From Longimicrobiales bacterium (GTDB lineage: Bacteria > Gemmatimonadota > Gemmatimonadetes > Longimicrobiales > Gaopeijiaceae), in contig OZ242008.1 of NCBI GenBank assembly GCA_965204735.1, positions 192,001 through 256,000 on the forward strand: 64,000 bases of DNA. The letters are read 5' to 3'. This document shows positions 2,444 to 31,734 of this stretch, one piece after another. The notes beneath the pieces are model-generated. The model saw only the letters and a program-made list of their open reading frames with translations, made no database searches and was not told the DNA's origin. Each line of letters opens with the position of its first letter. The first letter of the stretch is position 1. The translations under genes and the position numbers were made by a program.

Positions 2444-3013
2444 ATGTCGGACCTGCCCGAAGTCGAAATCGACTTGGAGCGCCTGCGCGCCAGGGACCAG
2501 GAAGAAGTGACGAAGGTCGTAATGACGTACGGCCCCGTGCTCAAGTCGGTGTTTTGGGGAGTCGCGGTCGATCGGCATGACCTTGCCGACATCGTGAACG
2601 ACTTCTGGATACATATCGTGCCGAGACTGGACCGCTACTCCGGCAAGTCTCCGTTCGGGCCGTGGCTCGTGCGCTGCGCCAAGAACTTCCGCAACTCCAG
2701 GGCGCGCAAGAACAGCGCCTGGGCTGCTCGGACGGCAACCTTCAAGGAGCGCCGGGAGCTGGTGGTCGACGGTTCGGCCCTCGACGAGGAAGTCCAGCGG
2801 CAGTTGCTGAAGCAAGCCGTCTTCAAGGCAGTGGACGAGCTGCCGGGGCTGGAGGGCCAGGCGGTGACGCTGACGATGCTGGAGGGCCGGAGCAAGGCGG
2901 ACGCCGCGAAGATGCTGAACGTCAGCCAGGCGACGGTTGCGAACTTGGTGCGACGGGGGCTGTTCAAGCTGCAGGAGAACGAGCTTCTCCAAAGCTTTCA
3001 CGACGACATGTAG
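2444..3013 (+). CDS. ECF-type RNA polymerase sigma-70 factor
   Basis: Region 2 (DLADIVNDFWIHIVPRLDRYSGKSPFGPWLVRCAKN) and region 4 (AVDELPGLEGQAVTLTMLEGRSKADAAKMLNVSQATVANLVRRG). ATG 2444 preferred over TTG 2408. Confidence 0.88.
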   Translation: MSDLPEVEIDLERLRARDQEEVTKVVMTYGPVLKSVFWGVAVDRHDLADIVNDFWIHIVPRLDRYSGKSPFGPWLVRCAKNFRNSRARKNSAWAARTATFKERRELVVDGSALDEEVQRQLLKQAVFKAVDELPGLEGQAVTLTMLEGRSKADAAKMLNVSQATVANLVRRGLFKLQENELLQSFHDDM

Positions 3014-3019
3014 GGACCC

Positions 3020-3754
3020 ATGCCGCCGCCGTTGCTCGCCCTGTCCGCCAGTTCGAGGTTGCGCCGGAAGCTCCGCATGGTCGCCGAGGCCGGCCCGGTG
3101 TCGCCGATCGTCGGACCCGTCGCCTTTGCTCGCAGCTGGAGCGGGCTGGCCGAGCTTGCCGCAGCTCACCCCGCGTCGCCGACGGTCGTCGATGCCGCGT
3201 TCCCCGAGGGTTCGCCCCCGCCGTCCACATTCGCGACGGCGCCGGGGATCGGTGGGAGCGACTCGCTTGGCGTCATTCGGCACGCCGTTCTTGGGGCCAT
3301 CGATCCCGAACGACCTCGTCGCTTGCTGGCCCGGATCCGCGAGCAAGGCGCCACCGAAGCCTGCCGGATCATGGACCACGTGCTGACCCGGTCCTTCGGT
3401 CCGTGCACGGTACCGGACTTGGCGGCGAGCCTGGGGCTGTCCCACTGGTCGCTGCTCCGCCGTTGCGCCGCCCTCGGCATTCCCACGCCCAAGAAGCTGA
3501 CCGACCTGGGACGCGTCTACACCGTCGAGCGACTGGCCGAGTGGAGCGAGCAACCGTCGGGCGTCGCGGCAACGGCCGTGGGGTACCCGGAGCCCGCCAA
3601 CTACCGACGAACGGCTCGCCGTGCCCTGGGCGAGCCGCCGACGGCGATCCGTCGCAGCGGCGGCGCCGCCTACGTGGGCCGCGTCATTCTGCGGAGGCTG
3701 GCGCCGCCGCCGACAGGTCCCGTCGGCCTCGCGCAACACGGCGCCAAAAACTGA
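3020..3754 (+). CDS. AraC-like HTH transcriptional regulator (same frame as the upstream sigma)
   Basis: Double HTH: TVPDLAASLGLSHWSLLRRCAALGIPTPKK ... AATAVGYPEPANYRRTARRALGEPPTAIR. Confidence 0.78.
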   Translation: MPPPLLALSASSRLRRKLRMVAEAGPVSPIVGPVAFARSWSGLAELAAAHPASPTVVDAAFPEGSPPPSTFATAPGIGGSDSLGVIRHAVLGAIDPERPRRLLARIREQGATEACRIMDHVLTRSFGPCTVPDLAASLGLSHWSLLRRCAALGIPTPKKLTDLGRVYTVERLAEWSEQPSGVAATAVGYPEPANYRRTARRALGEPPTAIRRSGGAAYVGRVILRRLAPPPTGPVGLAQHGAKN

Positions 3755-3794
3755 CCTGCATGTTCAGGGTTTCGAGAGCGTTCAACAGGTACGC
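3743..3794 (+). promoter_or_regulatory. Conserved promoter box A, copy 1 (ECF-like)
   Basis: gccaaaaactgacctgcat...gcgttca...gtacgc. 19 bp identical to 10274-10292. TGCATG-N16-CGTT spacing. Confidence 0.7.
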
Positions 3795-3827
3795 ACAGCG
3801 GTCTCACATCCAACTGGGGGTGGCAGG

Positions 3828-4883
3828 ATGAAGGTGCGGCGCGTGTTCGCCCAAGTGGTCGCTACCACCACCTTGGCAAGTTGTGGCAGCGATCCGGTCC
3901 CGTATCGGCCCTTGTTCTCGTTGGCGGACACGGTCTCCAGAGTGAAGTCGGCCGCGGTCTTCGACACGCTGTGGGCGTTCGGTGGCCCGGACGACACGCT
4001 TCTCGCCTTGCCGGCAATGCCCCGTCCCGATGGTTCCGGCGGGGTGGTCTTCGTCGACGTGCAGAGCATGAAGGTTCATCGCATCGGGGGCGAGGGGACG
4101 TTGCTGTGGTCGTGGGGCCGCAAGGGCGAAGGCCCAGGCGAGATCAAGAACGTTCGGGCCATGGACGTTCGCGACGACGGCTCCGTGGTTCTCGTCGACT
4201 CGGGGAACCGGCGGATCGTGACGCTGGACTCTGGCGGCAAGCAGATCGGCGAAACGGGCTTTTTCGGGAGGACGGTGCACTCCGTGGCGTCTCTCTTGGA
4301 GGACAAGCTCGCAGTCCACTCGACCAGCCCGTTGTGGGGCGTCTTGGAGGGCGGCAAAGTGCAGGAAGCGGAGTCTCCTCCTGGAACGGGTCCCTCTCCG
4401 TCGGTGGTGCAGCACCAAGGCCACGTCGTGAGGTGGCGAGGGGACAAGTGGGTGTTCGGCTACGGAGTGGGGAACGGCTGGATGGTCTTTGCCGATGACG
4501 CGCTTGTCGGCGTGCATCCATATGTGGAGCACACGGAGGTCCCGGCAGTGCGGGAGGCAGACCGGGTGCGCCGGACCTCTGGCTTCGTCTCCCGGCCTGT
4601 GACGTCCGGCCGTTCCCTTGCAGTGATCGGCGACACTCTGCATGTGCTTTTCGGCGGCGTCAAGGGCCTGGCTGGCCACAAGATCGACAGATACAACCTT
4701 CGGACGGGCGAGTACTTGAACACCGATCTGCTGCCGCACTACGCAAACCGAGCGGCCATGGCCGAAGGAAGAGTGGTCACCGTCTATTCGGCGGGTCTGT
4801 TCCCGCGTATCGTGGCGCTGGCGCGCAGGTCCCCTGACGACGTAGAAGCTGGTGTCAGCCTCGACAAAGGAGTTGAAAGATGA
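3828..4883 (+). CDS. 6-bladed beta-propeller lipoprotein
   Basis: Lipobox LASC; WGRKGEGPGEIKNVRAM motif; VLVDSGNRRIVTLD blade. Confidence 0.8.
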   Translation: MKVRRVFAQVVATTTLASCGSDPVPYRPLFSLADTVSRVKSAAVFDTLWAFGGPDDTLLALPAMPRPDGSGGVVFVDVQSMKVHRIGGEGTLLWSWGRKGEGPGEIKNVRAMDVRDDGSVVLVDSGNRRIVTLDSGGKQIGETGFFGRTVHSVASLLEDKLAVHSTSPLWGVLEGGKVQEAESPPGTGPSPSVVQHQGHVVRWRGDKWVFGYGVGNGWMVFADDALVGVHPYVEHTEVPAVREADRVRRTSGFVSRPVTSGRSLAVIGDTLHVLFGGVKGLAGHKIDRYNLRTGEYLNTDLLPHYANRAAMAEGRVVTVYSAGLFPRIVALARRSPDDVEAGVSLDKGVER

Positions 4884-6073
4884 TCAAGCCGGTTCGCTTG
4901 ATCTCCGTCTCGCGCCTGCTGGCGCGCACGGTGGCCGCTGCCCTGCTGCTGAGCTTCCTCGCTTGTTCCGACGCCCCGGGCGCGCACGACGCAGTCGCGA
5001 ACGACGGCTCCCGCCCCTGGGCTTCGCGGGATTCCTGGCTGGAGGCTCGGCTTGAGGCCGTTTCAGACGCAAGCCTGAACCTGGGCGAGGTCTTGGGCTT
5101 GGCAGTCGGGCATCAGGACATGGTCTACGTGCTGGACGCACTTAGTCCAGGCGTGGTCGTCTTGGACTCGCTTCTGTCGCCGGTCACGACGGTCGGCCGA
5201 CGAGGCGAAGGACCCGGCGAGTTCATGTTCATCCGCAACGTCCAGGTCCTGCCCGGAGACAGCCTGATGGTGTTCGACGGACAGCTGAAGCGCGTCACCG
5301 TCTTGTCAGAAGCGCCGGAAGCGCCGGAAGCGCAGTACGACTCGATGCGCTTCGCGGTGGTGCCCGCCGACGTCTCGCAACTCTGGAGAATGCTCGGACC
5401 CGTTGGGAACTACTTGGCCTACGACCGGCGAACGTTCTACGCAGGTGACATTCCAGAGGCAGACGCAGCACGCAACGACGTGTTCTTCGTCCTCGGCGAC
5501 GACGGCCTGACCAAGCGGCATGATTCCGTTCTGGTTGCCCCATCGTTGGAGACCTTGGTCGCGCGGAGTTCCGGGGCCGTGGCGCTCGGCCGGCACCCGT
5601 ACGGCCGCGAAGGATTCGTGGGAATGCTGACCAACGGGGGCTTCGCATACGTCAACTCGGACGCACTGTCGGTTGCGATCTTCGACGACGAAGGGCAACA
5701 AACCCGGTCGTTCTCGTATCCTACCGTCCCGTTGCCGGTGTCGTCCCAGGACCTTGCTGCCGAACTCGACAAGCTTCGACCGGCCCTTGCGAGAGTGCTG
5801 AGGGAAGGGGCTCCCTACACGCGGCCTCCGTTGGTTGGCATGGTCGTGGACGACCAGGATCGGATCTGGCTGGGGCTGCGCGGACCTGCCGAAGAGATGC
5901 CATGGGAATGGGCCGCGTTCGAGCTCGACGGTCGCCATGTGGGCTCGGTGCGCCTGCCTGCCGGTCTCTTGCTTCGCGCAGCCACAGGGGGCAAGCTGCT
6001 GGGAGTGGCCGTCGACGACCTCGAGGTGCCGAGGATTCACCTCTATCGGACCGTTGGGACGGCCGCATCATGA
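4880..6073 (+). CDS. 6-bladed beta-propeller lipoprotein
   Basis: Lipobox FLAC; VGRRGEGPGEF; GDSLMVFDGQLKRVTVL; C-terminal G.AVDDLEVPRIHLYR. ATGA overlap with the upstream gene. Confidence 0.82.
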   Translation: MIKPVRLISVSRLLARTVAAALLLSFLACSDAPGAHDAVANDGSRPWASRDSWLEARLEAVSDASLNLGEVLGLAVGHQDMVYVLDALSPGVVVLDSLLSPVTTVGRRGEGPGEFMFIRNVQVLPGDSLMVFDGQLKRVTVLSEAPEAPEAQYDSMRFAVVPADVSQLWRMLGPVGNYLAYDRRTFYAGDIPEADAARNDVFFVLGDDGLTKRHDSVLVAPSLETLVARSSGAVALGRHPYGREGFVGMLTNGGFAYVNSDALSVAIFDDEGQQTRSFSYPTVPLPVSSQDLAAELDKLRPALARVLREGAPYTRPPLVGMVVDDQDRIWLGLRGPAEEMPWEWAAFELDGRHVGSVRLPAGLLLRAATGGKLLGVAVDDLEVPRIHLYRTVGTAAS

Positions 6074-6131
6074 GGGCAGGCGTGGCTCGAAACGGCGACT
6101 CCGGCCAGCGGCGGCCGCCTGCTGTCGTGTG

Positions 6132-7298
6132 ATGGCGGACCTTCCCCCGTCCAGTGCGGTCGAGGGCCGATTCCCGGCCATGACGGGCCGCATCTTCGGC
6201 AAGCTGGCCGCGCTCTTTTCGCTGTACGCAGGATGGCTCCTTTTCGACGACCTCGATGGCGTGCCCTATCTGGAGCGCCTCGTCATGATCGGCGGCATCG
6301 CCTCGTTTGCCCTGGCGCTGCTGGTGGCTCCTGCCGTCTTTGCGGCCGGCAGCGAGTTCGACGTCTTCGGCGAAAGGGGGCCAGGAGAACGGCGACGCGG
6401 CTGGCGGTGGCTCGGTCTGGCGGCCCTCGGGGCTTGCCTAATGGCCGAGACGGGAGTTCCCCTGTCGGAGTACCTGCTCGACGTTGTCGCCCCGAACCGA
6501 ACACGCGGGGTGCCGGAACCGGGAGTCAGGTACTACAACCGCCTCCTGGTGCCAATCGCAGTGGGGATCTTCATCGTGACCTCGGGCGTGGCCGGTGCCG
6601 TGGTCCACTGCATGACTCGGGACTCGAGTCCGGGCCGCCGCAGTCTGGTGCGGTTTCTGACGTGCGTGGGCTTGGTCGCGTTGTTCTGGGCGTCTCTCCT
6701 GATCTGCAGCGAGCTGGTGAGGTCCACCACCACTATGCCCGTCGTCCTGATCGTCCTTGGCCCGCAGCTGATCCCCCTCCTGCTGACGTGGCGCCTTGTG
6801 CGCTCCCAGGGCTACGGCGTCCTCGAAGTCGTCGGGTTGGACAGAAGGATGGACCGTTGGCTGGACGCCGATGCCGTGGACCGACTTGTGCATGCCGTAA
6901 GCCGACAGGACGCGCCGAACGCCCCCGTCGTCGAAGATGTAGCGCGGAACCGGACCGAAGCGGAAGCCGCTCGGTTCATGCTGGCAATGAGGCGCGCAGC
7001 GGCCCCTGCGATCCGGGTGAGTGAAGCGGAAGCGCGGGCGACCGCAGCTCGCGCCCTGGCGGCGGCGCCGGCTCAAGCTGCAACATCAGGCGCCACGAGT
7101 CTCCGGCGGCTCGTCTCGGGTCGGGTCGGCGATTTCGGCGTGTCGTGGGCATCCCTGTCGGCAGGGTTGGTTCTCTTCGGCCTCATGGCTGCCGTGCCCC
7201 CCAACGCCTTGGCGGCTCTGACCGTGGCGTTGATCGGGACCGCAGTCCAGACTCGTTGGCTCCGGCCTGCTCGCGCAACCGCGCCGACACCGGCCTGA
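6132..7298 (+). CDS. Multi-pass membrane protein of unknown function (start 6132 or 6180)
   Basis: About 8 hydrophobic segments; sits in operon context between propeller genes. Confidence 0.65.
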   Translation: MADLPPSSAVEGRFPAMTGRIFGKLAALFSLYAGWLLFDDLDGVPYLERLVMIGGIASFALALLVAPAVFAAGSEFDVFGERGPGERRRGWRWLGLAALGACLMAETGVPLSEYLLDVVAPNRTRGVPEPGVRYYNRLLVPIAVGIFIVTSGVAGAVVHCMTRDSSPGRRSLVRFLTCVGLVALFWASLLICSELVRSTTTMPVVLIVLGPQLIPLLLTWRLVRSQGYGVLEVVGLDRRMDRWLDADAVDRLVHAVSRQDAPNAPVVEDVARNRTEAEAARFMLAMRRAAAPAIRVSEAEARATAARALAAAPAQAATSGATSLRRLVSGRVGDFGVSWASLSAGLVLFGLMAAVPPNALAALTVALIGTAVQTRWLRPARATAPTPA

Positions 7299-7305: not shown

Positions 7306-8514
7306 ATGAACGACACGTTTTCCAAGACCGTCGCCGGGGTGCTGGTCGCCTGCGCGCTGGTGGTTGCGGTTGCCGTCGTGCGGCAAGCCTTCTGGACGCC
7401 TGCGCCGCCCCCGCCTCCCAGCAGCGAGCCCCGCACGGAGAACGGCGAGTACGTGCAACGGACTTCGGCCGCCGGCGAGTCGCGATCGTGGGCAACGGGC
7501 CCTTGGCTGGAGCTCGACTCGAAGAACACGAGAACGGCGACCGGTTACGGCCTGGACGACTTCGACAACGTCGCGCTCGACTTGAAGGGCCGAGCGCATG
7601 TGGTGGATCGATCCAGCAAGAAGGTCGTCGTGTTCGATCCCGACTTGCAGTTCATCCACGCCGTCGCCCTCTCCCCCGCCGACCAGGAGATCGGAATCGA
7701 CATGCTGGGGACGGACAGCATCGCAGTCCTCGATTGGCGAACAGGACTGGCGTCGGTCAGGTCCACCAGAACTGGTGAAGTGGCATCCCACTTTCTTGTC
7801 TCCGGCGCCGGAACCTACTACCCCTACGCGATATGGGCCTTTGGGCAAGGCGCCGGCTTCCTGACGGCCTACACAAGCTCCTACACCCCCGACAACGCGT
7901 TGCAGAAGAACCGGCAAAACTTCATTCGCCTCTTCGACCGCGGCGGAGGCGTTGCCCGCGATTCGGTGTTCCTGTTTCCGGCCACGGAGAAGCTGGTTGC
8001 TGGAGCCGGGCTCGGCGTTTCGGTCGGCCCGCACCCCTTCGGCGCCACCTCCTACGTGCGCGTCCTGGCGGGCACGACGGTGGTCCAGGCGTCCTCGGAC
8101 CGCTTTGCCGTCAGCCTCGTAGACGTCGAGGAGGACGCGGCCACCTCCTTCTCGTACCCCACGGATCCGGCGTGGGTGTCCGACGCTGAGCTGACGGCCG
8201 CCGCGGCTCGGGAGTCGGAGGAGCGCGCCGCCGCTCTGCTCGCCGAAGGGCGTCGCGCCCGCCAAGTGCTGGCCGGGCTCGCAGTGGACAACCTGCGCAG
8301 CACAATCTGGGTAGGCGTCTGGGCGCCGCCCGGGTCCGACAGGGAGTGGGCCGCCTTCGACACGTCGGGCACGCATCTGGCTTCGGTTGCCCTGCCCGCC
8401 GCCTTTGTCCTGCACAGCGTAGTGGATGGCCGCTTGGTTGGCATCGACTACTCCGAAGGCAAGCGTGCTCCGGCGCTCCAATCGTTTCGAGTGCTTCGCG
8501 ACGACGAGCCCTGA
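7306..8514 (+). CDS. Membrane-anchored beta-propeller protein, paralog of 4880-6073
   Basis: N-terminal TM + poly-Pro linker. Shares G.HP[FY]G, SFSYPT.P and WAAF...G.H..SV.LPA with the 4880 protein. Confidence 0.75.
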   Translation: MNDTFSKTVAGVLVACALVVAVAVVRQAFWTPAPPPPPSSEPRTENGEYVQRTSAAGESRSWATGPWLELDSKNTRTATGYGLDDFDNVALDLKGRAHVVDRSSKKVVVFDPDLQFIHAVALSPADQEIGIDMLGTDSIAVLDWRTGLASVRSTRTGEVASHFLVSGAGTYYPYAIWAFGQGAGFLTAYTSSYTPDNALQKNRQNFIRLFDRGGGVARDSVFLFPATEKLVAGAGLGVSVGPHPFGATSYVRVLAGTTVVQASSDRFAVSLVDVEEDAATSFSYPTDPAWVSDAELTAAAARESEERAAALLAEGRRARQVLAGLAVDNLRSTIWVGVWAPPGSDREWAAFDTSGTHLASVALPAAFVLHSVVDGRLVGIDYSEGKRAPALQSFRVLRDDEP

Positions 8515-8540
8515 GGCCCGACCCCGACTGACGGTGTTGA

Positions 8541-8568
8541 CTTTCCCGTCGCTTCCGTCAAAGCTGTT
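8541..8568 (+). repeat. 28-bp direct repeat, copy 2 (right boundary of accessory block)
   Basis: ctttcccgtcgcttccgtcaaagctgtt; see 2228-2255. Confidence 0.9.
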
Positions 8569-8619
8569 TCCCGTCCCCGCTTTCCGTACTCCAGCGCGCT
8601 TGGCCCTTCGCTTCTCCCG

Positions 8620-10182: not shown

Positions 10183-10273
10183 CAGCCTCCGCTCCATGGG
10201 GGACAGCTCCATCGCCCACAGGGTCGCGGGCCGCCGAAAAGCGCCTGTCCGGGGAGGGCCGGGTCCGGGATCT

Positions 10274-10325
10274 GCCAAAAACTGACCTGCATTTTCGAGG
10301 GGCTGGGGGCGTTCAGAAAGTACGC
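10274..10325 (+). promoter_or_regulatory. Conserved promoter box A, copy 2
   Basis: gccaaaaactgacctgcat...gcgttca...gtacgc with the same spacing as 3743-3794; about 35 bp upstream of a propeller gene with a GGAGG RBS. Confidence 0.7.
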
Positions 10326-10359: not shown

Positions 10360-11403
10360 ATGAGCCGCTTTGTCCGGAAGGACCGGGCCAAGGCCCTGGT
10401 CGCAGTCGTCCGTACGTTGCTCGTGGGCCTGTTGTTGGGCCCAGCCGCGGCCTTGGACGCTCAGCGCCAATGGTTGCCGCCCCCCGTGGAAGTTGTTGCG
10501 TGGGAGGATGTCGACGGGAATGTCCTTGGGGGGCGTCCGCTGCAGATCGAGGGCAGTCCGCGAGGAGGGTTGGTCGTGGCCGACTGGGGAGACTTCTCCA
10601 TTCGCGAGTTGTCTGCTTCCGGCGAACTCGTCTGGAAGTTCGGACGAAGCGGCCCGGGACCTGGCGAGTTTCTCGCCATTCTGGACTTGCACTTTGCCGA
10701 CGACGGAAACCTGCACGTCCTCGACCCACGGAATCGCCGGGTGACGGTCGTCAGCGCGACAGGCGATCTTGTCGAGAGTGTGCCCGTCCCGGGTGGGGAG
10801 CCGGCAGCGCTGTTGCCCGCGTCCTTCGACCCCGGGTACTTCGCCGTCGTGCCGCACACCAACAAGAAGGACACCTTGTGGAGGTCGTTCTCAAAAACCG
10901 GCGTTCGGCATCGGACCGTGCTCATGCCGTCGGAAGTGGCGTTCGATCATGACTTGGCAGGCGAGGGTTGGGCCGCGGAGATACCGGGCGGTCGCGCGGT
11001 AGTCTTTTTTCGATGGTCCAGCCGGATGATCATCTTGGACGCCGACGGCAATGCAAGCGTTGTTGCGGACGGAATAGAGGCGATCCCTTTTCCCGAACTC
11101 GTCGCAGTCGAACGATCGGGGCCCGGCTGGACCGTTAGTGGATTCAAGGTCGATCCCAAAGCCGTGAAGGCAGCGCGGGGAGCGACGGCCACTGCGTCCC
11201 GCATCTTTGTGCTGTACTTGGGAACCACTGGCCATGCAGGGCGTGTGGTGGACACCTATTCGACGCATGACGGCGAGTACCTTGGATCCTACCTGTTCCC
11301 ACGCAGCGTGGACGCGATTGCCGTTCTCGCAGACGGTCGGCTTGCGACTCTTGAGAACCGACTGGTTCCGACCCTTCGCCTGTGGGACCTGTCTGTCGAC
11401 TAA
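10360..11403 (+). CDS. Secreted 6-bladed beta-propeller protein
   Basis: Signal peptide (..ALDA|Q); FGRSGPGPGEF; LHVLDPRNRRVTVV. Confidence 0.82.
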   Translation: MSRFVRKDRAKALVAVVRTLLVGLLLGPAAALDAQRQWLPPPVEVVAWEDVDGNVLGGRPLQIEGSPRGGLVVADWGDFSIRELSASGELVWKFGRSGPGPGEFLAILDLHFADDGNLHVLDPRNRRVTVVSATGDLVESVPVPGGEPAALLPASFDPGYFAVVPHTNKKDTLWRSFSKTGVRHRTVLMPSEVAFDHDLAGEGWAAEIPGGRAVVFFRWSSRMIILDADGNASVVADGIEAIPFPELVAVERSGPGWTVSGFKVDPKAVKAARGATATASRIFVLYLGTTGHAGRVVDTYSTHDGEYLGSYLFPRSVDAIAVLADGRLATLENRLVPTLRLWDLSVD

Positions 11404-23361: not shown

Positions 23362-23817
23362 GTCACGCTGAAGAGCAGGGTGGCCACGACATTCCCGACT
23401 CCGACAAACCGCTCCAACTCCCCCAGGTCACGGGTCAGAACCTTCCGGCACGGTCGTGGGCAAGACCCCGGATCACTCTGGGACAAGACCGGGCAAAGCC
23501 GCTGCTACATGGCCAACACCGGAGTCAGCGTTCTCGTAGCTGGGCTGGCATTCCTGCAACTTGGTTGTGACGCGACATCGCCGTCGCACGATTCACAACC
23601 GATAGTTGTCGAAGCCCGACCGGCTGTAACCGAGCGCGGAACACTACAGGTTCGGCTGACCAGCAGCAGAAACGCCGTTGCCGGTGTTCCAGTCGTTCTT
23701 CGCGTCTACGACCTGGCAGGAAACGTCGTGGACGAACGGAAGTTTGCTTCTCTGCAGGACGTCGCGGCAGGCGCCGTATTCACGGACGACAGCACTGAGA
23801 CGGAGGGCGAACGATGA
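23281..23817 (+). CDS. Hypothetical exported/lipoprotein (alternative start 23509), cassette 1 partner protein
   Basis: AGGAG RBS; leader MTYLRKLARLFRRAVATVAFGQG; internal lipobox LQLGC; PVVLRVYDLAGNVVDERKFASL resembles paralogs at 24711 and 26387. Confidence 0.6.
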   Translation: MTYLRKLARLFRRAVATVAFGQGTPQSVTLKSRVATTFPTPTNRSNSPRSRVRTFRHGRGQDPGSLWDKTGQSRCYMANTGVSVLVAGLAFLQLGCDATSPSHDSQPIVVEARPAVTERGTLQVRLTSSRNAVAGVPVVLRVYDLAGNVVDERKFASLQDVAAGAVFTDDSTETEGER

Positions 23818-24407
23818 AGCCATGGGCCAGGGCCGTATCCGCCGTTCTGTTGATCACTACGGCAACCCTCCCCGCATCGTTGGTCGCTGTAGAATCCGCT
23901 TCCCTCAATCGTCCTCTGGACGTAACTGTCGAGCTGTCGGCTCTGGAATGCCGCGCAGACGGCAACGTTGTCTTCAGCGCAACAGGCTCCTCTGGAGGCT
24001 TCGCGGCCGAAGCGGTTCGTGACGCCATCCCTTCCTGCGAGGTGGACTGGACGGCGGCCGTAACGGGTTGTACGACGTGCTTCACATCCGTCATGTTCCT
24101 CGTGGGCGGCGCATGGGCTGTTCGAGCTGCACACTTGGGCATGAGGCTCGCCATTGCCATGACCAGAGGCCAAGCCCGGGCAGCGATGTTCGCTGCCGGG
24201 TTCACCTTCGCTGGCGTCTTGTCCCAGCTCTTGCCTGGATGTCGCGGGTGCTTTTCTGCAACGTGCGTGCGTGAGTTGGCTCGAGGCGTGATGGAGGCGA
24301 TTGAGCAGTTGTTCACGTCTCCCCTCTGGTCGTGCGCGAACGCGGACGTCAATGCCGAGTTGGAGTGCCTGATTGGGATCAACGACGATGGCGAGATCGA
24401 ATACTAG
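23814..24407 (+). CDS. Secreted Cys-rich protein with CxxC-hydrophobic hairpin-CxxC (bacteriocin-like candidate)
   Basis: Signal peptide; CTTC...long Ala/Gly-rich hydrophobic stretch...CRGC; GGAGGG RBS; ATGA coupling. Confidence 0.6.
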   Translation: MKPWARAVSAVLLITTATLPASLVAVESASLNRPLDVTVELSALECRADGNVVFSATGSSGGFAAEAVRDAIPSCEVDWTAAVTGCTTCFTSVMFLVGGAWAVRAAHLGMRLAIAMTRGQARAAMFAAGFTFAGVLSQLLPGCRGCFSATCVRELARGVMEAIEQLFTSPLWSCANADVNAELECLIGINDDGEIEY

Positions 24408-24627
24408 CACTGGCACCGTCGAGAAGGTCGCTAGGTATCGGCGCCGAGCTCGATGCGCGGTGATCGTTGCGGTAGCGATGGCGACGGTGGGACCGGTCGT
24501 GGACCCGTCCCTGGAAGCGATAGTGTCGGCGGTGACGGCGTGGGCCGCCGGCACTATCATCTGGCTGATCGCGGACATCTCCAAGGCGGTCGTTGACTGC
24601 GCCGACGGGCAGGACTGCGAGGACTAG
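24373..24627 (+). CDS. Small putative secreted amphipathic peptide (start uncertain)
   Basis: RYRRRAR + hydrophobic core + LEA, then IVSAVTAWAAGTIIWLIADISKAVVDCADGQDCED. Confidence 0.45.
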   Translation: MGSTTMARSNTSTGTVEKVARYRRRARCAVIVAVAMATVGPVVDPSLEAIVSAVTAWAAGTIIWLIADISKAVVDCADGQDCED

Positions 24628-24710
24628 GTTGGCAACCGCCAAATGGGAAGTGGACGGGACCACCGTCACGGAAAAATGGCTCGAATGCTTTGAACCGGAG
24701 TGGTAGAGAA

Positions 24711-25271
24711 ATGATGAAGCTACTTGAGCGTCAAGTCCCGCTCTGGCTGATCTTGGTCTGCTTCGTCACCATGGCGACGACACTCGTGGTGGCGGCTTGG
24801 TTGTCTTCACGACCGGCCGACGAACCGACCGTCGTGAACGTCGTGGACGTCGTCTGGACGGACGGACGGCTGGAGATGCCCAACCCGGAAGCGTTCACGG
24901 AAGGGCACGACGGCCCTGTCGCTTTTCGCATCATTGAGGACGGAGAGGTCGTCATGGAGTTCGCAGGGGCGAACTTGGCGGAAGCACGCCAGAAGCTCGA
25001 GCAAGCATCCATGGAATACCTCGAGGAGATGGCCGGCCGACCGGATGCGTCTCAGGCGCTGCGGGCTCTTGTAGAGCTGAGAGAAAGCCTCCCGTCCGAT
25101 TCTTCCATCAGGCTTATGACGGCCGACCAACTGACTCGTTTGCTGGAGACGATGGAACCGCTGTTGGCGGCTGGTTATGCCGACATGCCGGCGGAGGAGC
25201 AGGCCAAGGTGCTCTCGGGCGTGAAGGAAGCCGTGAACGCCGTGAAGTCGGAGGTGGCGAAGGACTCCTGA
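24711..25271 (+). CDS. Membrane-anchored hypothetical protein, paralog of 26387-27061
   Basis: N-terminal TM; DEPTVV..DVVW..GR.E, DGPV..R.I, ESLP..S.I.LMT, RLLE..EPLLAA shared with the paralog. Confidence 0.75.
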   Translation: MMKLLERQVPLWLILVCFVTMATTLVVAAWLSSRPADEPTVVNVVDVVWTDGRLEMPNPEAFTEGHDGPVAFRIIEDGEVVMEFAGANLAEARQKLEQASMEYLEEMAGRPDASQALRALVELRESLPSDSSIRLMTADQLTRLLETMEPLLAAGYADMPAEEQAKVLSGVKEAVNAVKSEVAKDS

Positions 25272-25354: not shown

Positions 25355-26225
25355 GCGCCCCTGCCGCCCCACCCGCCCTCGCGGTCCAGGCAATGCCTTC
25401 GGCCCAGGGCGGCCCTCTCGGCCCAAAGCCACCCTCGCCGCCCCGACCGAGGCCGCCGCCCTTGGCGAGCGCCACGCCCTTGCCAAGCTCATGGCGCCTG
25501 AACGCCTGGGTCCTGGGCACGGCCGCCTCGCCGGACCGGGCGGTCGTCCCGGCGGCCACCGCAGTGCCCTGACCGTCCTGACCGGCGATCCCGACATCGA
25601 CGTCCGCGCGGTCGCCGCGGCTGCGCTTCACGCCACCCACGACGACGACCACCCGGCCCTTCGCCCCCTCCTAGCCGCGCCAGCGGCCCCTCCGTCCTCG
25701 GCCCCCTCTCCGCTGCCCTCCACCGCAACGAGCGCGGCAACTCCGCCCGACCGATCCGGAGGTGCTGATCGGCCTCGCCGCAGGGCTGGCGGCGGCCGGC
25801 AACCATGCCCAGGCCGTGGGAGTCTACAGGACGCCCTTGGCCTCGATCCCGACCACCCGGTCGCCCTGGTCAACCTCGGGCTGGGCCTCGAGGCCCTGGG
25901 CCGCGACGCCGAAGCCGAGGCCGCCTACGATCGGGCCGCGACGGCAAGACCGAGCGAGGCTCTGGCGCACTTCAACCTGGGCAACGCCCGCTTCCGCCGC
26001 GGCGACCTGCTGGGCGCGGGCGTCGCGTACCGGGCCGCCGTCGAATCCGATCCGGGCTTGGCCCGCGCCCACTTCTACCTCGCCGTCGTCCTCGTCAACG
26101 GCGGCGGCGATCTGGAGGAAGCCCTTTCGGCCCTCTACAGCGCCGCCGAGTTCGCCCCCGACGACGAAGAGGTCCGTCGCGTTCTCCAGCAGGTGGAAGC
26201 GGCGGTGAACAGGCCGGGCGGCTAA
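25355..26225 (+). pseudogene. Degenerate duplicate of the 3' part of the multiheme-TPR gene
   Basis: No heme domain; an internal deletion and frameshifts in the 5' half; last about 130 codons almost identical to 22730-23124. Confidence 0.88.
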
Positions 26226-26254
26226 GGAGCGGCGCGCAGGCCTCTGCGGGCGGT

Positions 26255-26302
26255 GTGCCAATTTTGATATACCACGGGAGCGGCTTGCGGCGTCTCCATA
26301 TA
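26255..26302 (+). promoter_or_regulatory. Conserved promoter box B, copy 2
   Basis: Identical to 23154-23201 (part of the duplication). Confidence 0.7.
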
Positions 26303-26386
26303 TGTCGGCAGGAACCGACAGGCTCGCGTCGCGAGGAGGCTCGCACCCTTCCCGGAATTCAGAATCCTCTACCAGGAGACAGCAGC

Positions 26387-27061
26387 ATGACTTACCTTCG
26401 CAAGCTCGCCCGGCTCTTCCGTCGCGCCGTCGCGACGGTCGCCTTCGGCCAGGGCGCTCCCCAGTCGCAAGTCCGGCCGAACCAAGCCCCGGTCCGCCGC
26501 GGCTTCTCCCACCGCGGCCTCGCCCTGGTGCCGCTGCTCAGGTTCAGGCATGGACTGACGGTGGGCGTCATAGCGATCGCGATGTCCGCCAGCGGCTGCA
26601 CGGACGCGTTTTCGCGGCCGGTCGATGAGCCGACCGTCGTTGACGTCGTCTGGAGGAACGGCCGTGTGGAACTCGCCGATCCAGAAGTCGCGCTGGAGCG
26701 GCCCGACGGCCCTGTCAGGGTTCGCTTCATCAAGGACGACGAGGTAGTCAAGGAATACGCCGCCGGAAGCTTGGCGCAGGCACGGGCGGAAATGGAGCGT
26801 GACGTCCGGAACAAGTGGAAGGATATGGCCAGGCGCCCGGGCGCATTGCCCGAAACCAGGGCGTGGGCAGAGCTGATGGAGAGCCTCCCTACCGAGTCTG
26901 CCATCATGCTCATGACGGACGAAGAACGGACGCGCCTGTTGGAGGCGGTGGAGCCGTTGCTGGCGGCTAGTCGCCGCGACATGAGGGCGGAGGAGCGTGC
27001 CAGGATGCTGTCCGACGTTAGAGAAACCGTGAACGCCTTGATGTCGGAGGTGGCAAAATGA
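26387..27061 (+). CDS. Hypothetical lipoprotein, cassette 2 partner protein
   Basis: Same leader MTYLRKLARLFRRAVATVAFGQG; hydrophobic stretch ending ASGC; paralog of 24711-25271. Confidence 0.72.
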   Translation: MTYLRKLARLFRRAVATVAFGQGAPQSQVRPNQAPVRRGFSHRGLALVPLLRFRHGLTVGVIAIAMSASGCTDAFSRPVDEPTVVDVVWRNGRVELADPEVALERPDGPVRVRFIKDDEVVKEYAAGSLAQARAEMERDVRNKWKDMARRPGALPETRAWAELMESLPTESAIMLMTDEERTRLLEAVEPLLAASRRDMRAEERARMLSDVRETVNALMSEVAK

Positions 27062-27534
27062 TGATGGCACGTGGCTTGGTCTTCATCCTTCTCCTCCTCG
27101 GCGCGGCCTTCGCTGCCGAGCCAGCGGAAGCCGCCGTAGCCCCGGACGCCGAAGTCACTTCGGTCAACACCTGTCCGATCCCCCAACGCAACTGCTCGAG
27201 GTCGGAGGCATGGGAAATGGGCATCAACTGCGGGGCATGCTTCGTCGAAGTGTTCCTGTGCCCGTTCGCGATCGGGGCCGTCTACATAGCTCCGGACCCT
27301 GCGTCAAAAGCGGCTGCGATCCTTGCCGCGCTCATCACGTGTCTGGGTCCATTCCAGTCGTGCACGCAGTGTGTCAGGGCGGCCCACCGCTGCGGCGACG
27401 AAGCCAAGGAGCGGGCGGCGCGAGAGCACCTGCGGGCGACCATGGAACGCATTCGTCGTCTGGAGGAGATGCTGATCCCAGGCAATGGTAACGAGTGCGA
27501 AGAGAGCGCTCCTGATTGCCATACTCCCCACTGA
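27058..27534 (+). CDS. Secreted Cys-rich protein with CxxC-hydrophobic hairpin-CxxC (bacteriocin-like candidate)
   Basis: Clear signal peptide; 11 Cys; CGAC..LC..hydrophobic..TC..CTQC; GGAGG RBS; ATGA coupling. Confidence 0.68.
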   Translation: MMMARGLVFILLLLGAAFAAEPAEAAVAPDAEVTSVNTCPIPQRNCSRSEAWEMGINCGACFVEVFLCPFAIGAVYIAPDPASKAAAILAALITCLGPFQSCTQCVRAAHRCGDEAKERAAREHLRATMERIRRLEEMLIPGNGNECEESAPDCHTPH

Positions 27535-27548
27535 GCGGAGAGGCTAAC

Positions 27549-27794
27549 GTGATAAACTTTCTGGTCACTTTTGGCCGATGGTGGCTTGGGTTTGGATGCG
27601 GCTGGTGTTTCGCCATGACCTACGGCCCCTGGACGGTCTTGGTCGCTGTTCCAATGACGGTGTTGGTAGTGTGCACCGCGTTGTGGTTCTGCGGCTTTCG
27701 CGGGGCCGTGTTTGCCCTCTTCGGGGGCGATACGCCGACGCTTGTTCGTCCGGTTCCGGCCTGGCTCCTGCGAATCGCCCCATGGCTCCGATAG
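27549..27794 (+). CDS. Small membrane protein (immunity-like candidate)
   Basis: GGAGAGG RBS + GTG; 81 aa, Trp-rich, about 2 TM segments. Confidence 0.55.
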   Translation: MINFLVTFGRWWLGFGCGWCFAMTYGPWTVLVAVPMTVLVVCTALWFCGFRGAVFALFGGDTPTLVRPVPAWLLRIAPWLR

Positions 27795-27804
27795 GTCCCG
27801 GCCC

Positions 27805-28980
27805 GTGAGTCGCGACTGTCCAGGTCCGTGCGTCGGTTTCGTGCCGATCTGGGCAGTCGCGACCATCGCAGCAACCCTGCTCGCTTCTTCCGCAGAGGCC
27901 CAATGGCGGCTGGGTCCGCCGGACTTGGTGATCGGCGAGGAAGCAGGGACGCTGTTCGACGACATAGCGGATGTGTTCGTCCGCGACGCTCGCATCTACG
28001 TGACGGACCGAGGCGCCCGCACGATTCGAGCGTTCGCTCGGGCGACCGGGCGCTTGGTCGCAACGGCGGGGCGTGAAGGCGAGGGCCCTGGCGAGTTTCG
28101 GTTTGTGGGCTGGGTAGACGACTGCGGTACCGACGCAATCGTCGCGTCGGACCACGGCTTGGACCGTGTGTCCGTCTTTACCCTGGATCTGGACCATGTT
28201 CGGACGTTCGCTCTGGGCGCCACGCGACTCGCTGCGATCCAGTGCGTTGGTTCGCGCGGATTCGTAGGAATCAAACGAAACCCCGATCCCCTGCTCCACC
28301 TTCGGGGGGAAATCCCAATGGAGCCGTACGTCGGTACGGTCGATCTCGTCCTGTTGGGGCCAGACGGTTCCCTCCAGCGGACGATCGGAAGATTCCCTGC
28401 TGAAGACCGATTCCGTGTGGCCATGCCCGACGGCCGGGGCTACAGCATACTCCCCCTCGTGTGGGGTCTGCGGCCGGTCTTCGAGTCCTTCCAGCAGGGG
28501 TTTGTCTTCGGAACAGGAGACTCGTGGTCGCTGGCCCGCTACGACGCGGAGGGCAACGTCTTGGACACGCTGGCGCTGGACCAGAGCCGTCTCGCCGTTG
28601 CGCGTGCCCATGTCGACGAGCATGCCCGGCGAGCGGTCGCGGCCAGCCGCAACCCCGAACGCGATCGACGGTTCTACGCGGACTACCCGTTCCCTTCCCA
28701 CTTCCCCGCATACACCGATGTCGTCGCGTCGAAGAGCGGCTTCACCTGGGTAGAACAGTTCTCCGCACCTTACCCGGAAGCTGACCCTCACTGGAAGGTC
28801 TTCGCACCCGACCGCGCCTTGGCGGCTACTGCGGACTTGCCGAGAGGCTTCGAACTCATGTGGGTTGGGGACACGCAAGTCGCGGGAGTCGTGAGAGACG
28901 AACTGGGCGTCCAGAGCATGGAGCTGCGCCCCATCGTGCGCGTGGCGGAAAACGACCTATCGGCTCGAAGGAAGCCGTGA
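27805..28980 (+). CDS. Secreted 6-bladed beta-propeller protein (start approximate)
   Basis: Signal ..SAEA|Q; AGREGEGPGEF; GVVRDELGVQSMELRPI C-terminus. Confidence 0.82.
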   Translation: MSRDCPGPCVGFVPIWAVATIAATLLASSAEAQWRLGPPDLVIGEEAGTLFDDIADVFVRDARIYVTDRGARTIRAFARATGRLVATAGREGEGPGEFRFVGWVDDCGTDAIVASDHGLDRVSVFTLDLDHVRTFALGATRLAAIQCVGSRGFVGIKRNPDPLLHLRGEIPMEPYVGTVDLVLLGPDGSLQRTIGRFPAEDRFRVAMPDGRGYSILPLVWGLRPVFESFQQGFVFGTGDSWSLARYDAEGNVLDTLALDQSRLAVARAHVDEHARRAVAASRNPERDRRFYADYPFPSHFPAYTDVVASKSGFTWVEQFSAPYPEADPHWKVFAPDRALAATADLPRGFELMWVGDTQVAGVVRDELGVQSMELRPIVRVAENDLSARRKP

Positions 28981-29086: not shown

Positions 29087-29111
29087 GCCGAAGCAGTAGA
29101 TTGCAGGTGCC

Positions 29112-29588: not shown

Positions 29589-30010
29589 CCTCCATGCATC
29601 CGGCCGCAAGGCGCGCCGGCAGAACCCCGTCGCCCGTGGTCGGCCTGCCCCTGGGCGCCTTTCCGGCCCTGCTGGCGTTGATGGCGGCCGCCGTCGCGAC
29701 CGCCTGCGACGAGGACCCCATCGGCTCGCCCCTCTCGATTGAGCTGGCGGGTCCCGGCGCCGGCGTCGTCGGCGAAGAGCTGGCGGTGCAGTACCAAGTG
29801 CGCGGCCGCCAGCTCCTGGGCGTCGTCTTCACCTGGGGCGACGGCGCCGCCGACACCCTCGCCACCGAGGGCGCCCAGAGCGCCGCCGGCACGCGACGCC
29901 ACACCTACCGCTCTGCTGGCGTCTACACCGTCCAGGCCCGGGCCCAGGACGCGGTGGAAGGCGTCGCGACCGCCGAAGCGTCGATTCGGGTGGAGGACGC
30001 CGGTTCCTGA
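29585..30010 (+). CDS. PKD/Ig-like domain lipoprotein
   Basis: ATAC lipobox; FTWGDG...HTYRSAGVYTV PKD signature. Confidence 0.7.
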   Translation: MTSMHPAARRAGRTPSPVVGLPLGAFPALLALMAAAVATACDEDPIGSPLSIELAGPGAGVVGEELAVQYQVRGRQLLGVVFTWGDGAADTLATEGAQSAAGTRRHTYRSAGVYTVQARAQDAVEGVATAEASIRVEDAGS

Positions 30011-30229
30011 CCGGCGGCGTCTTCGCCGCCCGGCCACGACAGGCGCTCGCCCCGCCATGACAGGCTGAGCACGGCGCGCCACGGGGCCGATCCTGGCGGA
30101 AAGTGACCTATCGAGGGAACGGCTCTCCAGCGTTCTCGAAGTGTTCGCGGGCTGGACCGGAACACGTCCGGGAACCTTTGGCGGTTTGCGGAGTATCACT
30201 GTCAGTAACCGCCAACAGGGGGCCGCCCA

Positions 30230-31633
30230 ATGGACGCTGCTTCGCCAATCGACTCGACCGCCGACACGCCGAAGGCAACCGAGAGACCACCCACGCTCGC
30301 CGAGCTGGAACGCTTCCGAGCCGCCGACCCCGCCCTCCTGCGGGAGTGGCTCGCGGAGGTGGAGCCACGCCTGATCGGGACGATAGCGGGCTGGGCCGCC
30401 GATCCCGCCCACGCGGACGACCTGCTGCAGGAGGTCCAGGTCCGCATCTACCGGCGGCGGGCAGGCTTTTCCGGCTCCGGCACGTTCGCGCGGTGGGCGG
30501 ACAAGGTCTGCCTGAACATCTGTCGCACCGATCAGCGCATGAGGGCGCGCAATCGGGCGGTGCCGATCGACCAGTGCCCGGAGATCGCGGACGACGCGCC
30601 CGGTCCCGCGGAGCAGTTCCAGAGCCGCCTGCGGGCCGCGACGGTTCGCGAGGCCGTCGAACGGCTGGACGAGAGGGAGCGGGAAGCGGTCGTCGCCTGT
30701 CACCTCGAGGAGCTGCCGACGGCCGAGGTCGCCCGAACGATGAAGACGACCGAACAGGTCGTCAGAACCCTGGTCCACCGGGGCTTCCGGAAGCTCAGGA
30801 GCATGGACGACGTGACGGAGTTCATGATCGGCTCCAACAGCCGCGCGCCACAAGCGTCCTCCGTTCTCGCGCTCCAATCGGACTGCCGGCTTCGGACTCG
30901 GTTGCGGACGGGCGTGCGGGCCGGGGCCGTCCACGGCTTGGTGGAAGGCGTCCACTTCGCCTCCGGCTGGAGCGACCTGCGGGAGTTGGCGCTCCGCTTC
31001 AGTGGTTCGCCCGCGTTCGTGGACCCCTCGCATCCCTCGGCGGAGGAACGACGAGACCCAGCGGCGTGGTTGCAGCAGGCGGTGCCGGAGTGTCCTCTGA
31101 TCCGCTACGGGAAGGGCGGCGCCAAGTCGCCGGCCACGGACGCCGAGTTCGTCGCGCGTCTGACGCCCGGCGACAACGACAGCCTCGTGGCGATCGGCAC
31201 TGCGGTGCTTCTGGCCGCCAACTACGACTTGGTGCGCAACCTGCTGGCGAACCTCGGGAAGGTCGCTCCCGTCGAAGCTCGAGAGCTTCTGGGGAGCGTC
31301 GTTCGCCGCACGGTGTTCCCGTGCACGGTCGGGGCACTGGCGACGAGCTGGGGAACCAGCGTGGCGATGGTAGGGCGGCGGTGCCGGGCGTGGGGACTGC
31401 CGAAGCCCAAGAGACTCGTCTTGCTGGCACGCCTCTTTCACGTGCAGAGGCTGGCCGAATGGAGCGGTCGGCCGCCGGGCGCGATCGCCCTCGCCCTGGG
31501 CTACTCGGCCTACTCCAACTACGCGCGGTGCGTGCGAAGGGAGATGGAGTGCACGTCGTCGGAGGTCGCCCAACGCGGCGGAGCGGCCTACGTGGCCGCG
31601 AGACTGATCGACGAGGTTGGGGACTCCCGATGA
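30230..31633 (+). CDS. ECF sigma factor fused to a C-terminal AraC-like HTH module
   Basis: ADDLLQEVQVRIYRRRAGFSGSGTFARWADKVCLN; region 4 LDEREREAVVACHLEELPTAEVARTM; then PCTVGALATSWG...GLPKPK...IALALGYSAYSNYARCVRR. Confidence 0.85.
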   Translation: MDAASPIDSTADTPKATERPPTLAELERFRAADPALLREWLAEVEPRLIGTIAGWAADPAHADDLLQEVQVRIYRRRAGFSGSGTFARWADKVCLNICRTDQRMRARNRAVPIDQCPEIADDAPGPAEQFQSRLRAATVREAVERLDEREREAVVACHLEELPTAEVARTMKTTEQVVRTLVHRGFRKLRSMDDVTEFMIGSNSRAPQASSVLALQSDCRLRTRLRTGVRAGAVHGLVEGVHFASGWSDLRELALRFSGSPAFVDPSHPSAEERRDPAAWLQQAVPECPLIRYGKGGAKSPATDAEFVARLTPGDNDSLVAIGTAVLLAANYDLVRNLLANLGKVAPVEARELLGSVVRRTVFPCTVGALATSWGTSVAMVGRRCRAWGLPKPKRLVLLARLFHVQRLAEWSGRPPGAIALALGYSAYSNYARCVRREMECTSSEVAQRGGAAYVAARLIDEVGDSR

Positions 31634-31686
31634 GGCGGTCCAGCGCGAGCCGGTTCGCGCCCCTCGAGATCGAGGAATTCGCAGAG

Positions 31687-31734
31687 GTGCCAATTCTGAT
31701 ATACCACGCAGCGGGCGGGCGGCGTCTCCATCTA
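31687..31734 (+). promoter_or_regulatory. Conserved promoter box B, copy 3 (independent context)
   Basis: gtgccaattctgatataccacg-N10-gcggcgtctccatcta; spacer diverged, flanks conserved. Confidence 0.75.

What the first reader, a model, noticed from the sequence alone, without database searches (positions are those of the whole stretch)
2444..31734. Candidate new system: ECF-sigma/AraC hybrid regulators, each with its own promoter box, driving dispersed exported-effector cassettes
Seen: two paralogous sigma+AraC-like modules (2444-3754 and 30230-31633), neither with a recognisable anti-sigma gene. Each is followed immediately by a distinct conserved box. Box A (3743) recurs at 10274; box B (31687) recurs at 23154 and 26255. 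Every copy precedes genes for exported proteins: beta-propellers, partner lipoproteins, Cys-rich peptides, or an OM barrel + TBDR. Both boxes have a GCCAA-N3/4-TGA upstream part and a CGT(T/C) -10-like element. Inference: the AraC-like domain binds the upstream part and the sigma domain reads the core promoter, giving two parallel regulons for secreted peptides and surface proteins inserted among housekeeping genes. I know of no described ECF group with this architecture.
Basis: partly seen in the sequence, partly recalled or inferred. Interest (0 to 1): 0.85.

Follow-up and report, generated by a model that had tools for sequence, protein, structure and literature searches.

The report
Sigma factor steered by AraC partner
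In these uncultured Gemmatimonadota bacteria, a family of stress-type sigma factors nearly always sits beside, or is fused to, an AraC-type DNA-binding protein, and the two likely read one shared promoter signal that stands in front of inserted genes for predicted exported proteins; I found no description of such a pairing.

Summary
The boxes and regulators are real, but the picture needs correcting. Module B (30230-31633) is one fused protein: sigma, receiver-fold domain, AraC helix-turn-helix pair. Module A is two genes separated by an in-frame stop. Boxes A and B are subtypes of one motif: a 16-bp upstream element, a 19-20-bp spacer and an ECF-type -10 hexamer. A matrix trained on 8 sites from other genomes finds 9 sites above 21 bits in this genome, 0 in controls. 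11 of 12 sites precede a same-strand ORF, against 14% of random non-coding positions. The motif recurs in 40 of 57 related loci, and 51 of 57 carry the family sigma. These sigmas lack several usual -35-reading residues, and fused forms are not one clade. Best model (0.6): the AraC partner binds at about -50 to -35 and recruits its sigma, which reads -10. Two B copies are one duplication. A third subtype precedes module B, so the regulons look cross-wired, not parallel. 'Effector' is unsupported. Binding, start sites and sign of control are untested. The scan noted this family before on other DNA (e1-9595312).

The parts
2444..3013 (+). ECF-type sigma A (189 aa), separate ORF ending in TAG
   Evidence: Sigma70_r2, Sigma70_r4_2, TIGR02937 62.9 bits; stop seen directly
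3020..3754 (+). AraC-like partner A (244 aa): shortened receiver-like domain plus two HTH; in frame with sigma A
   Evidence: HTH_18 34.8 bits; internal deletion against family alignment; frame
3742..3783 (+). Box, subtype A: 16-bp element 3742-3757, 20-bp spacer, -10-like hexamer 3778-3783; overlaps the partner's stop codon
3828..4883 (+). Predicted lipoprotein, propeller family
   Evidence: lipobox; family HMM E 1.7e-23; weak NHL-type hit
4880..6073 (+). Propeller-family protein with hydrophobic N-terminus
   Evidence: family HMM E 6e-76; sequence
6180..7298 (+). Conserved multi-pass membrane protein with a helical soluble insert; candidate sensor or regulator
   Evidence: homologues in 28 of 57 loci; weak LptF_LptG hit E 0.004, below cut-off; no anti-sigma likeness
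7306..8514 (+). Propeller-family protein
   Evidence: family HMM E 2.6e-49
2206..2268 (+). Left copy of the direct repeat flanking islet A
   Evidence: 75% identical to 8519-8581; present once at the empty site in G001
8519..8581 (+). Right copy of the direct repeat flanking islet A
10273..10314 (+). Box, subtype A, heading a one-gene insertion between trpE and an M20 peptidase
   Evidence: insertion absent in G001
10360..11403 (+). Propeller-family protein with hydrophobic N-terminus
23154..23194 (+). Box, subtype B (inside the duplicated segment)
23281..25271 (+). Cassette 1: 178-aa ORF, 197-aa Cys-rich ORF (23814-24407), 49-aa ORF (24478-24627), 193-aa ORF (24690-25271); no Pfam family
   Evidence: absent in G001 and G003 at this site
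25355..26467 (+). Second copy of 22115-23361: 3' part of the cytochrome-c/TPR gene, box B and first 27 codons of the next gene
   Evidence: 85-99% identical pieces
26255..26295 (+). Box, subtype B, identical over 48 bp to 23154
26387..28980 (+). Cassette 2: 224-aa predicted lipoprotein, 158-aa Cys-rich ORF (27058-27534), propeller (27712-28980)
   Evidence: (DUF5128 E 8e-4, below cut-off)
30094..30135 (+).
   Evidence: 18.8 bits with a matrix from other genomes; 17-18 of 22 positions shared with module-5 sites
30171..30196 (+). Classical ECF-type promoter (GGAAC, 16-bp spacer, GTA) upstream of module B
   Evidence: seen before 17 of 37 family sigmas examined and many unrelated G000 genes
30230..31633 (+). 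Fused regulator B (467 aa): sigma2-sigma4, receiver fold, AraC HTH pair
   Evidence: pLDDT 90; receiver fold Z 12.9, rmsd 2.8, 111 aligned
31687..31727 (+). Box, subtype B, downstream of regulator B
31795..34819 (+). OM beta-barrel (31795-32457) and TonB-dependent-receptor-like gene (32477-34819)
   Evidence: OMP_b-brl_2; CarboxypepD_reg and Plug; same genes follow the orthologous module in G003 at another site

Best explanation
This is a family of ECF-type sigma factors paired with a receiver-fold/AraC protein (adjacent, a few genes apart, or fused) that likely act together as a two-part promoter reader. The AraC HTH pair would bind the 16-bp element at about -50 to -35. It would recruit RNA polymerase carrying the partner sigma, whose -35-reading helix is altered and which would mainly read and melt the -10 hexamer. 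The targets are inserted islets of predicted exported proteins. Subtypes of the upstream element likely give partial specificity among paralogues. Some modules are probably switched on from above by a core ECF promoter or by another module's box. Shown: motif, geometry relative to genes, co-occurrence, folds, residue changes, insertions. Inferred: start sites, who binds what, and activation rather than repression.
For: Motif beyond chance with held-out training. 70 hits above 13 bits in 57 loci, 13 of them training sites, against 2 in controls. 11 of 12 G000 sites have a same-strand ORF of 150+ aa starting 80-140 bp on, against 3 of 12 on the other strand and 14% of 1500 random non-coding positions; 9 of 12 with a hydrophobic N-terminus, against 4.7%. 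Of 57 boxes of 15+ bits, 14 directly follow the sigma gene, 12 directly follow the AraC gene, 9 point away upstream of the sigma, 22 lie elsewhere. Family sigma within the locus in 51 of 57; 2 of the 6 misses have short flanks. Fused forms are rejected as one clade (p-AU 0.001, 31 rows). Conservation is strong in the 16-bp element and the -10, weak (0.83 bits or less) at the -35 position. In 50 family sigmas the E. coli sigmaE R173 position is aliphatic or Gly in 46 and basic in 2, against polar in 11 of 11 ordinary G000 ECFs; S/T172 is kept in 16 of 50 and F/H175 in 6 of 50 (contacts from PMC1540707 and PMC6713349). The 3' half of the element tracks AraC similarity more than sigma similarity (rho 0.56 vs 0.36); the next 6 bp track sigma4 (0.30), not AraC (0.03) (37 loci). 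A strict pattern hit 5 of 201 genomes, 4 of them among the 22 with a family AraC match. Precedent: Rob displaces sigma70 region 4 at class II promoters (PMC9178005).
Against: No binding, start-site or expression data. R176 (44 of 50) and R171 (30 of 50) are mostly kept, so sigma4 may still read DNA. The element tracks the whole AraC protein better than either HTH (0.23-0.35), as shared descent of whole islets would also give; loci are kin, so the correlations are not independent tests. 17 of 57 loci have no box of 15+ bits within the flanks. G124 (80 contigs, 97% complete) has two good boxes but no family AraC found. G056 has a family-like sigma with no AraC or box within 7 kb. A looser pattern also hit genomes without modules (23 hits against 7 control hits in the 37 genomes outside genus g1). 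The element is partly palindromic (mean 3.3 of 7 pairs), which would also suit a dimer. Only 13 of 67 propeller-family ORFs in G000 lie behind a box.
Confidence: 0.6

Rival explanations
1. The AraC partner binds the same element but represses. The sigma reads the promoter alone and the partner, often encoded downstream of a box, gives negative feedback.
For: The element abuts or overlaps the -35 position. In spaced modules a box follows the sigma and precedes the AraC gene. R171 and R176 are mostly kept.
Against: The -35 position is barely conserved and R173/F175 equivalents are lost. Fusing a sigma to its own repressor in separate lineages is hard to explain.
Confidence: 0.13
2. The sigma alone reads the whole motif with an altered region 4 and an unusually long spacer; the AraC protein acts elsewhere or only by protein contact.
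For: The upstream element also tracks sigma similarity (rho 0.41). Boxes follow sigma genes as often as AraC genes (14 vs 12).
Against: A 16-bp element is far longer than the 7-bp span sigmaE region 4 contacts (PMC1540707). Its nearest conserved triplet lies about 22-23 bp from the -10 triplet, against 16 in this genome's GGAAC promoters.
Confidence: 0.1
3. The AraC protein recruits a housekeeping ECF sigma; the family sigma is a decoy (PhyR-like mimic) that titrates an inhibitor.
For: Sigma-then-receiver order resembles PhyR, and PhyR chains appear in the fold search. One clade's -10 ends like the core promoter's -10. The -10 does not track the family sigma.
Against: Region 2 residues (Q, W, N, R) are nearly invariant. 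The receiver lacks the Lys and Ser/Thr needed for phospho-switching. The -35-position bases track family sigma4 (rho 0.30).
Confidence: 0.1
4. The boxes are not promoters but recombination or insertion-sequence end sites, or passengers copied with islet DNA.
For: Three window boxes sit at the left edge of insertions. Two are one duplication. The element is partly palindromic; box A recalls IS21-type end repeats (recalled, not from a call).
Against: No box at the empty sites in G001 or at right ends. Boxes also lie inside islets. Fixed 19-20-bp spacing with a free spacer, strand bias and fixed distance to start codons. IS-end-like repeats in G000 do not pass the matrix.
Confidence: 0.05

Closest known systems
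sigmaVreI with PhoB, Pseudomonas aeruginosa (PMC4971064; abstract and passages read)
   Same: An ECF sigma that needs a separate DNA-binding factor bound just upstream of -35; targets include secreted proteins.
   Different: PhoB is a global OmpR-type regulator, phosphorylated and encoded elsewhere; VreI has an anti-sigma (VreR) and a required -35. Here the partner is a dedicated AraC-type protein with a degenerate receiver, co-encoded or fused.
Class II activation by monomeric AraC/XylS proteins, e.g. Rob (PMC9178005; passages read)
   Same: A single AraC-type protein bound over the -35 region replaces sigma region 4 reading.
   Different: Described with sigma70, not with a private ECF sigma; no fusion; no receiver fold.
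dCas12f-sigmaE of Flagellimonas (10.1101/2025.06.10.658880; abstract and section 11 read)
   Same: A co-encoded partner largely supplants -35 recognition by an ECF sigma.
   Different: RNA-guided, and the -10 is read without sequence specificity; here the partner is a protein HTH pair and the -10 is conserved.
PhyR / ECF15 (PMC7826278 supplement passage; fold hits)
   Same: Sigma-like domain followed by a receiver fold in one chain.
   Different: PhyR is a phosphorylated anti-anti-sigma with no AraC domain; here the receiver lacks switching residues and is followed by two HTH motifs.
ECF groups with C-terminal extensions or without anti-sigma, e.g. ECF41, ECF42, ECF228 SigP-PorX, ECF130, ECF201 (PMC7826278; passages read)
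   Same: No anti-sigma; control by a fused extension or by a neighbouring regulator.
   Different: The extensions named in the passages read are SnoaL, TPR, Cys-rich, DUF1835 or membrane domains. 'AraC' occurs 0 times in the main text and in the stored (cut) supplement.

Membership tests
ECF (group 4) sigma factors | sigma2 and sigma4 domains, no sigma3 | tested here: met
   Pfam r2 and r4, no r3; TIGR02937 above cut-off for both; fold matches SigH, RpoE, AlgU, SigW
ECF (group 4) sigma factors | Usual -35-reading residues of helix 4.2 (R171, S/T172, R173, F/H175, R176 in sigmaE numbering) | tested here: not met
   Of 50 family sigmas: R171 30, S/T172 16, R/K173 2, H175 6 and F 0, R176 44 (reference contacts). 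Partly lost, not wholly.
A described ECF group (Casas-Pastor 2021) | Score against group HMMs | not testable with these tools
   ECF Hub models are not held; all named NCBIfam subfamily models shown are below cut-off
A described ECF group (Casas-Pastor 2021) | Adjacent anti-sigma factor | tested here: inconclusive
   None recognised; the conserved membrane protein gave no anti-sigma hit in PDB sequences, Pfam or profile comparison
AraC/XylS family | About 100-residue domain with two HTH motifs (HTH_18) | tested here: met
   A 34.8 bits (cut-off 33.6); B 33.4, just under; full-length profile coverage; helices in model
AraC/XylS class II activators | Binds a site overlapping -35 and activates | not testable with these tools
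   Geometry inferred by placing the -10 triplet at -13 to -11; no start site or binding data
Response regulators (REC-AraC type) | Receiver fold | tested here: met
   Z 12.9, rmsd 2.8 A, 111 aligned; the top rows are nearly all receiver domains
Response regulators (REC-AraC type) | Phospho-acceptor Asp plus acidic pocket, Ser/Thr and Lys | tested here: not met
   Asp kept in 51 of 57; beta4 position Tyr in 41; no conserved Lys; acidic pocket variable (canonical positions recalled)
PhyR anti-anti-sigma factors | Sigma-like plus functional receiver, no DNA-binding output domain | tested here: not met
   C-terminal AraC domain present; receiver degenerate; PhyR_sigma-like hit below cut-off
PhyR anti-anti-sigma factors | NepR/EcfG and histidine-kinase context | not tested
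   Only looked over my own gene calls near the five G000 modules; no systematic scan

The most novel reading that the evidence does not exclude
A new class of composite sigma factor: an ECF sigma has handed upstream promoter recognition to a dedicated AraC-type subunit, at times fused into one chain. Paralogous pairs with diverged boxes form a cross-wired, expandable regulatory layer. The layer travels as promoter-plus-leader units and brings newly inserted exported-protein genes under control.
Probability: 0.45. Interest if true: 0.8.

Novelty: new variant of a known kind. Interest (0 to 1): 0.66.

Why it matters
ECF sigma factors are usually controlled by anti-sigma factors and read both promoter elements themselves; activator-dependent ECFs are rare (VreI-PhoB, dCas12f-sigmaE). 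A family built around a private AraC partner, with natural one-chain fusions and a promoter readable from sequence, would add a regulatory mode that the 2021 ECF classification does not name in the text I could search. It would offer ready-made one-gene sigma-activator switches with paralogous specificities. It also gives a handle on how a little-studied phylum controls its many inserted genes for exported proteins.

Tried and rejected
Complex prediction of sigma A with partner A: no verdict, score 0.00 in two runs, no evidence either way. RNA evidence: no RNA holder listed; only contigs could be laid, so no start sites. Search for longer fused relatives (497-2000 aa): none among 7994 candidates, weak evidence. 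ESM Atlas: only generic ECF clusters at 0.80 or lower for the fusion, no usable hit for the membrane protein. Anti-sigma reading of the membrane protein's soluble insert: resemblance by eye only; PDB best E 0.39, no consistent Pfam family, profile scores within the random range. Programmed readthrough of the sigma stop: 4 of the 11 intact adjacent pairs are in frame, with three different stop codons, about what chance gives. sigma70-type promoter scan of 22900-32000: 1 weak site against 0.3 expected, not at a box. sigma54 reading of the reverse strand of box B: no -12 element (seen; consensus recalled). BLAST with the box B region in five genomes found only the window's own copies as significant. 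A comparison of looser patterns across genomes was not carried out, so presence/absence rests on one loose and one strict pattern. Literature: searches (listings only) found no paper on an ECF-AraC pair or fusion or on these sigmas in Gemmatimonadota. The ECF classification supplement was cut when stored, its group tables were not seen, and most subscription journals are not held.
Full report
1. Observation. The window lies in a single 4.14-Mb contig. Relatives of its regulators come almost all from records titled Longimicrobiales, Gemmatimonadota or Ca. Palauibacter; habitat was not established. Module B is one 467-aa ORF with sigma2, sigma4 and HTH_18 hits. Module A is two ORFs, sigma 2444-3013 and partner 3020-3754, in frame across a TAG. 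Contigs from a second study span 2000-11500 in one piece and list no change at the stop among the 40 variants shown, so the split is unlikely to be an error. All five boxes are present. The two B copies at 23154 and 26255 belong to one duplication that also copies the end of the upstream TPR gene and the first 27 codons of the next gene.

2. One motif, not two. G000 holds five such modules: one fused, two adjacent, one adjacent with a frameshifted sigma, one with a membrane gene in between. I gathered 63 loci (5 from G000, 2) and dropped 6 near-duplicates, leaving 57. Their downstream DNA gave a shared two-part motif: a 16-bp element, 19 or 20 free bases and a hexamer with the CGT/CAT triplet. 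A matrix from 8 sites outside G000 found 9 G000 sites above 21 bits and 16 above 17. The reversed and complemented genome gave 0 above 17; four wrong spacer pairs gave 0 above 21. Retrained, it gave 13 sites above 18 bits. I set aside one (140931, poor -10, no nearby ORF) and kept 12, all in essentially non-coding DNA. They fall into about five subtypes, each matching the box beside one module. Across the 57 loci it gave 70 hits above 13 bits (13 are training sites) against 2 in controls; 40 of 57 loci have a box of 15+ bits.

3. The motif behaves like a promoter. 11 of 12 G000 sites have a same-strand ORF of 150+ aa starting 80-140 bp on, against 3 of 12 on the other strand and 14% of 1500 random non-coding positions; 9 of 12 have a hydrophobic N-terminus, against 4.7%. 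If the T of the triplet is -11, as in ECF promoters (inference), the 16-bp element spans about -50 to -35. Information is high in the element and the -10 and low at the -35 position. In a related strain, six listed variants fall in 3700-3800 and none in the conserved 28 bases; this is weak on its own.

4. The proteins. The partner's N-terminal part folds as a receiver domain (pLDDT 90; Z 12.9). It keeps the acceptor Asp (51 of 57) but lacks the Lys, Ser/Thr and acidic pocket (canonical positions recalled), and in module A's clade it is internally shortened, so phospho-control is unlikely. A family sigma is in the same locus in 51 of 57 cases, in varied order and distance. Fused forms occur in a deep clade, in module B within an otherwise split clade, and in P0049; one origin is rejected (p-AU 0.001; 31 rows picked from 57 plus P0049). 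Region 2 is conserved. Helix 4.2 is altered: R173-equivalent aliphatic or Gly in 46 of 50, S/T172 in 16, F/H175 in 6, while R176 (44) and R171 (30) persist; 11 ordinary G000 ECFs are all polar at 173. The reference contacts are from passages of PMC1540707 and PMC6713349. The family is small: 45 representatives at E below 1e-30 among 1.8 billion, and 22 of 201 genomes of the order, 19 of them in the window's own family.

5. Who reads what. Over 37 loci, similarity of the upstream element follows AraC similarity (rho 0.48; 3' half 0.56) somewhat more than sigma similarity (0.41; 0.36). The six bases after it follow sigma4 (0.30) and not AraC (0.03). The -10 follows neither. This fits a partner on the element, weak sigma4 contact at -35 and a shared -10. 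The loci are kin and whole islets are inherited together, so this is suggestive only. A strict pattern hit 5 of 201 genomes, 4 with modules; G124 has two boxes and no module found, and G056 has a sigma without partner or box. A loose pattern was too noisy to separate groups.

6. Targets and context. G001, of the same genus and without a module, has hydantoinase-trpE-M20 ... TPR-lipoprotein-PKD-SusC contiguous and no box there. All four cargo stretches in the window are therefore insertions, and islet A is flanked by a ~57-bp duplication of its target. In G003 the orthologue of module B, with the same barrel and receptor genes, sits at a different nearby site. Propeller-family genes occur in 46-47 of 57 loci and the membrane protein in 28. 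Only 13 of 67 G000 propeller-family ORFs lie behind a box. Nothing shows that the cargo are effectors. Module B is preceded by a module-5-type box (30094) and by a GGAAC...GTA promoter (30171) that also precedes 17 of 37 family sigmas examined and many other genes. The modules are thus probably wired to each other and to a core ECF.

7. Comparison with what is known. It works most like class II activation by Rob (PMC9178005, passages; paper suggested by note e1-9595312) transplanted to a private ECF sigma. Activator-dependent ECFs are known: VreI-PhoB (PMC4971064, abstract and passages) and dCas12f-sigmaE (10.1101/2025.06.10.658880, abstract and one section). It is not a PhyR and not a canonical response regulator. 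The ECF reclassification (PMC7826278; passages of the main text and of a supplement cut when stored) has no occurrence of 'AraC' in the text held; its group HMMs and tables were not available. Six searches (listings only) found no description. The scan reached the same reading on another genome (e1-9595312, unreviewed). My reading was recorded before I saw it, and it is not counted as evidence.

8. Verdict. A real, previously undescribed variant of activator-dependent ECF transcription. Confidence in joint reading with activation is 0.6; rivals are repression by the partner (0.13), sigma alone (0.10), decoy sigma (0.10) and non-promoter (0.05). Interest 0.66.

Noticed in passing
window 25218-25290 and 28962-29060: The last ~15 codons and downstream DNA of the 193-aa gene recur at 95% after cassette 2, so the two cassettes share both ends but differ in the middle, as if cargo were swapped between fixed flanks.
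   Followed up: partly
G000:C1 4018618(-) and 4089905(+); L043 downstream of the AraC gene: Boxes of different subtypes are followed by similar leader DNA and similar first codons, suggesting that promoter, ribosome site and first codons travel as a unit; at 4089905 the ORF stops after 21 codons.
   Followed up: no
G000:C1 3440613-3442040 (-): Third module: the sigma gene is frameshifted in region 4, the AraC gene is intact, and a box points away into three propeller-family genes.
   Followed up: partly
G000:C1 4088581-4089946: Two B-subtype boxes point outward on either side of an S14-like ribosomal protein gene (label recalled) and a neighbouring gene, far from any module.
   Followed up: no
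G000 genome-wide: A GGAAC...GTA promoter stands before dozens of genes, many with lipoprotein-like starts, and before three of the five modules; which sigma reads it was not tested.
   Followed up: partly
window 35885-56412: Beyond the receptor genes lies a ~20-kb stretch absent in G001, with a YhgA-like transposase gene, an IS-like transposase and genes that look like restriction or defence functions (labels partly recalled).
   Followed up: no
L117 (G056:C1:328000-343000): A family-like sigma lies between two halves of the conserved membrane gene, with no AraC partner or box nearby: probably a decaying islet.
   Followed up: partly
window 27058-27534: Cys-rich ORF with a very weak Ssp4 hit (15.7 bits against cut-off 300); not taken as evidence.
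   Followed up: no
G000:C1 3788810-3790830: An IS21-like pair (label recalled) sits directly upstream of the fourth module.
   Followed up: no
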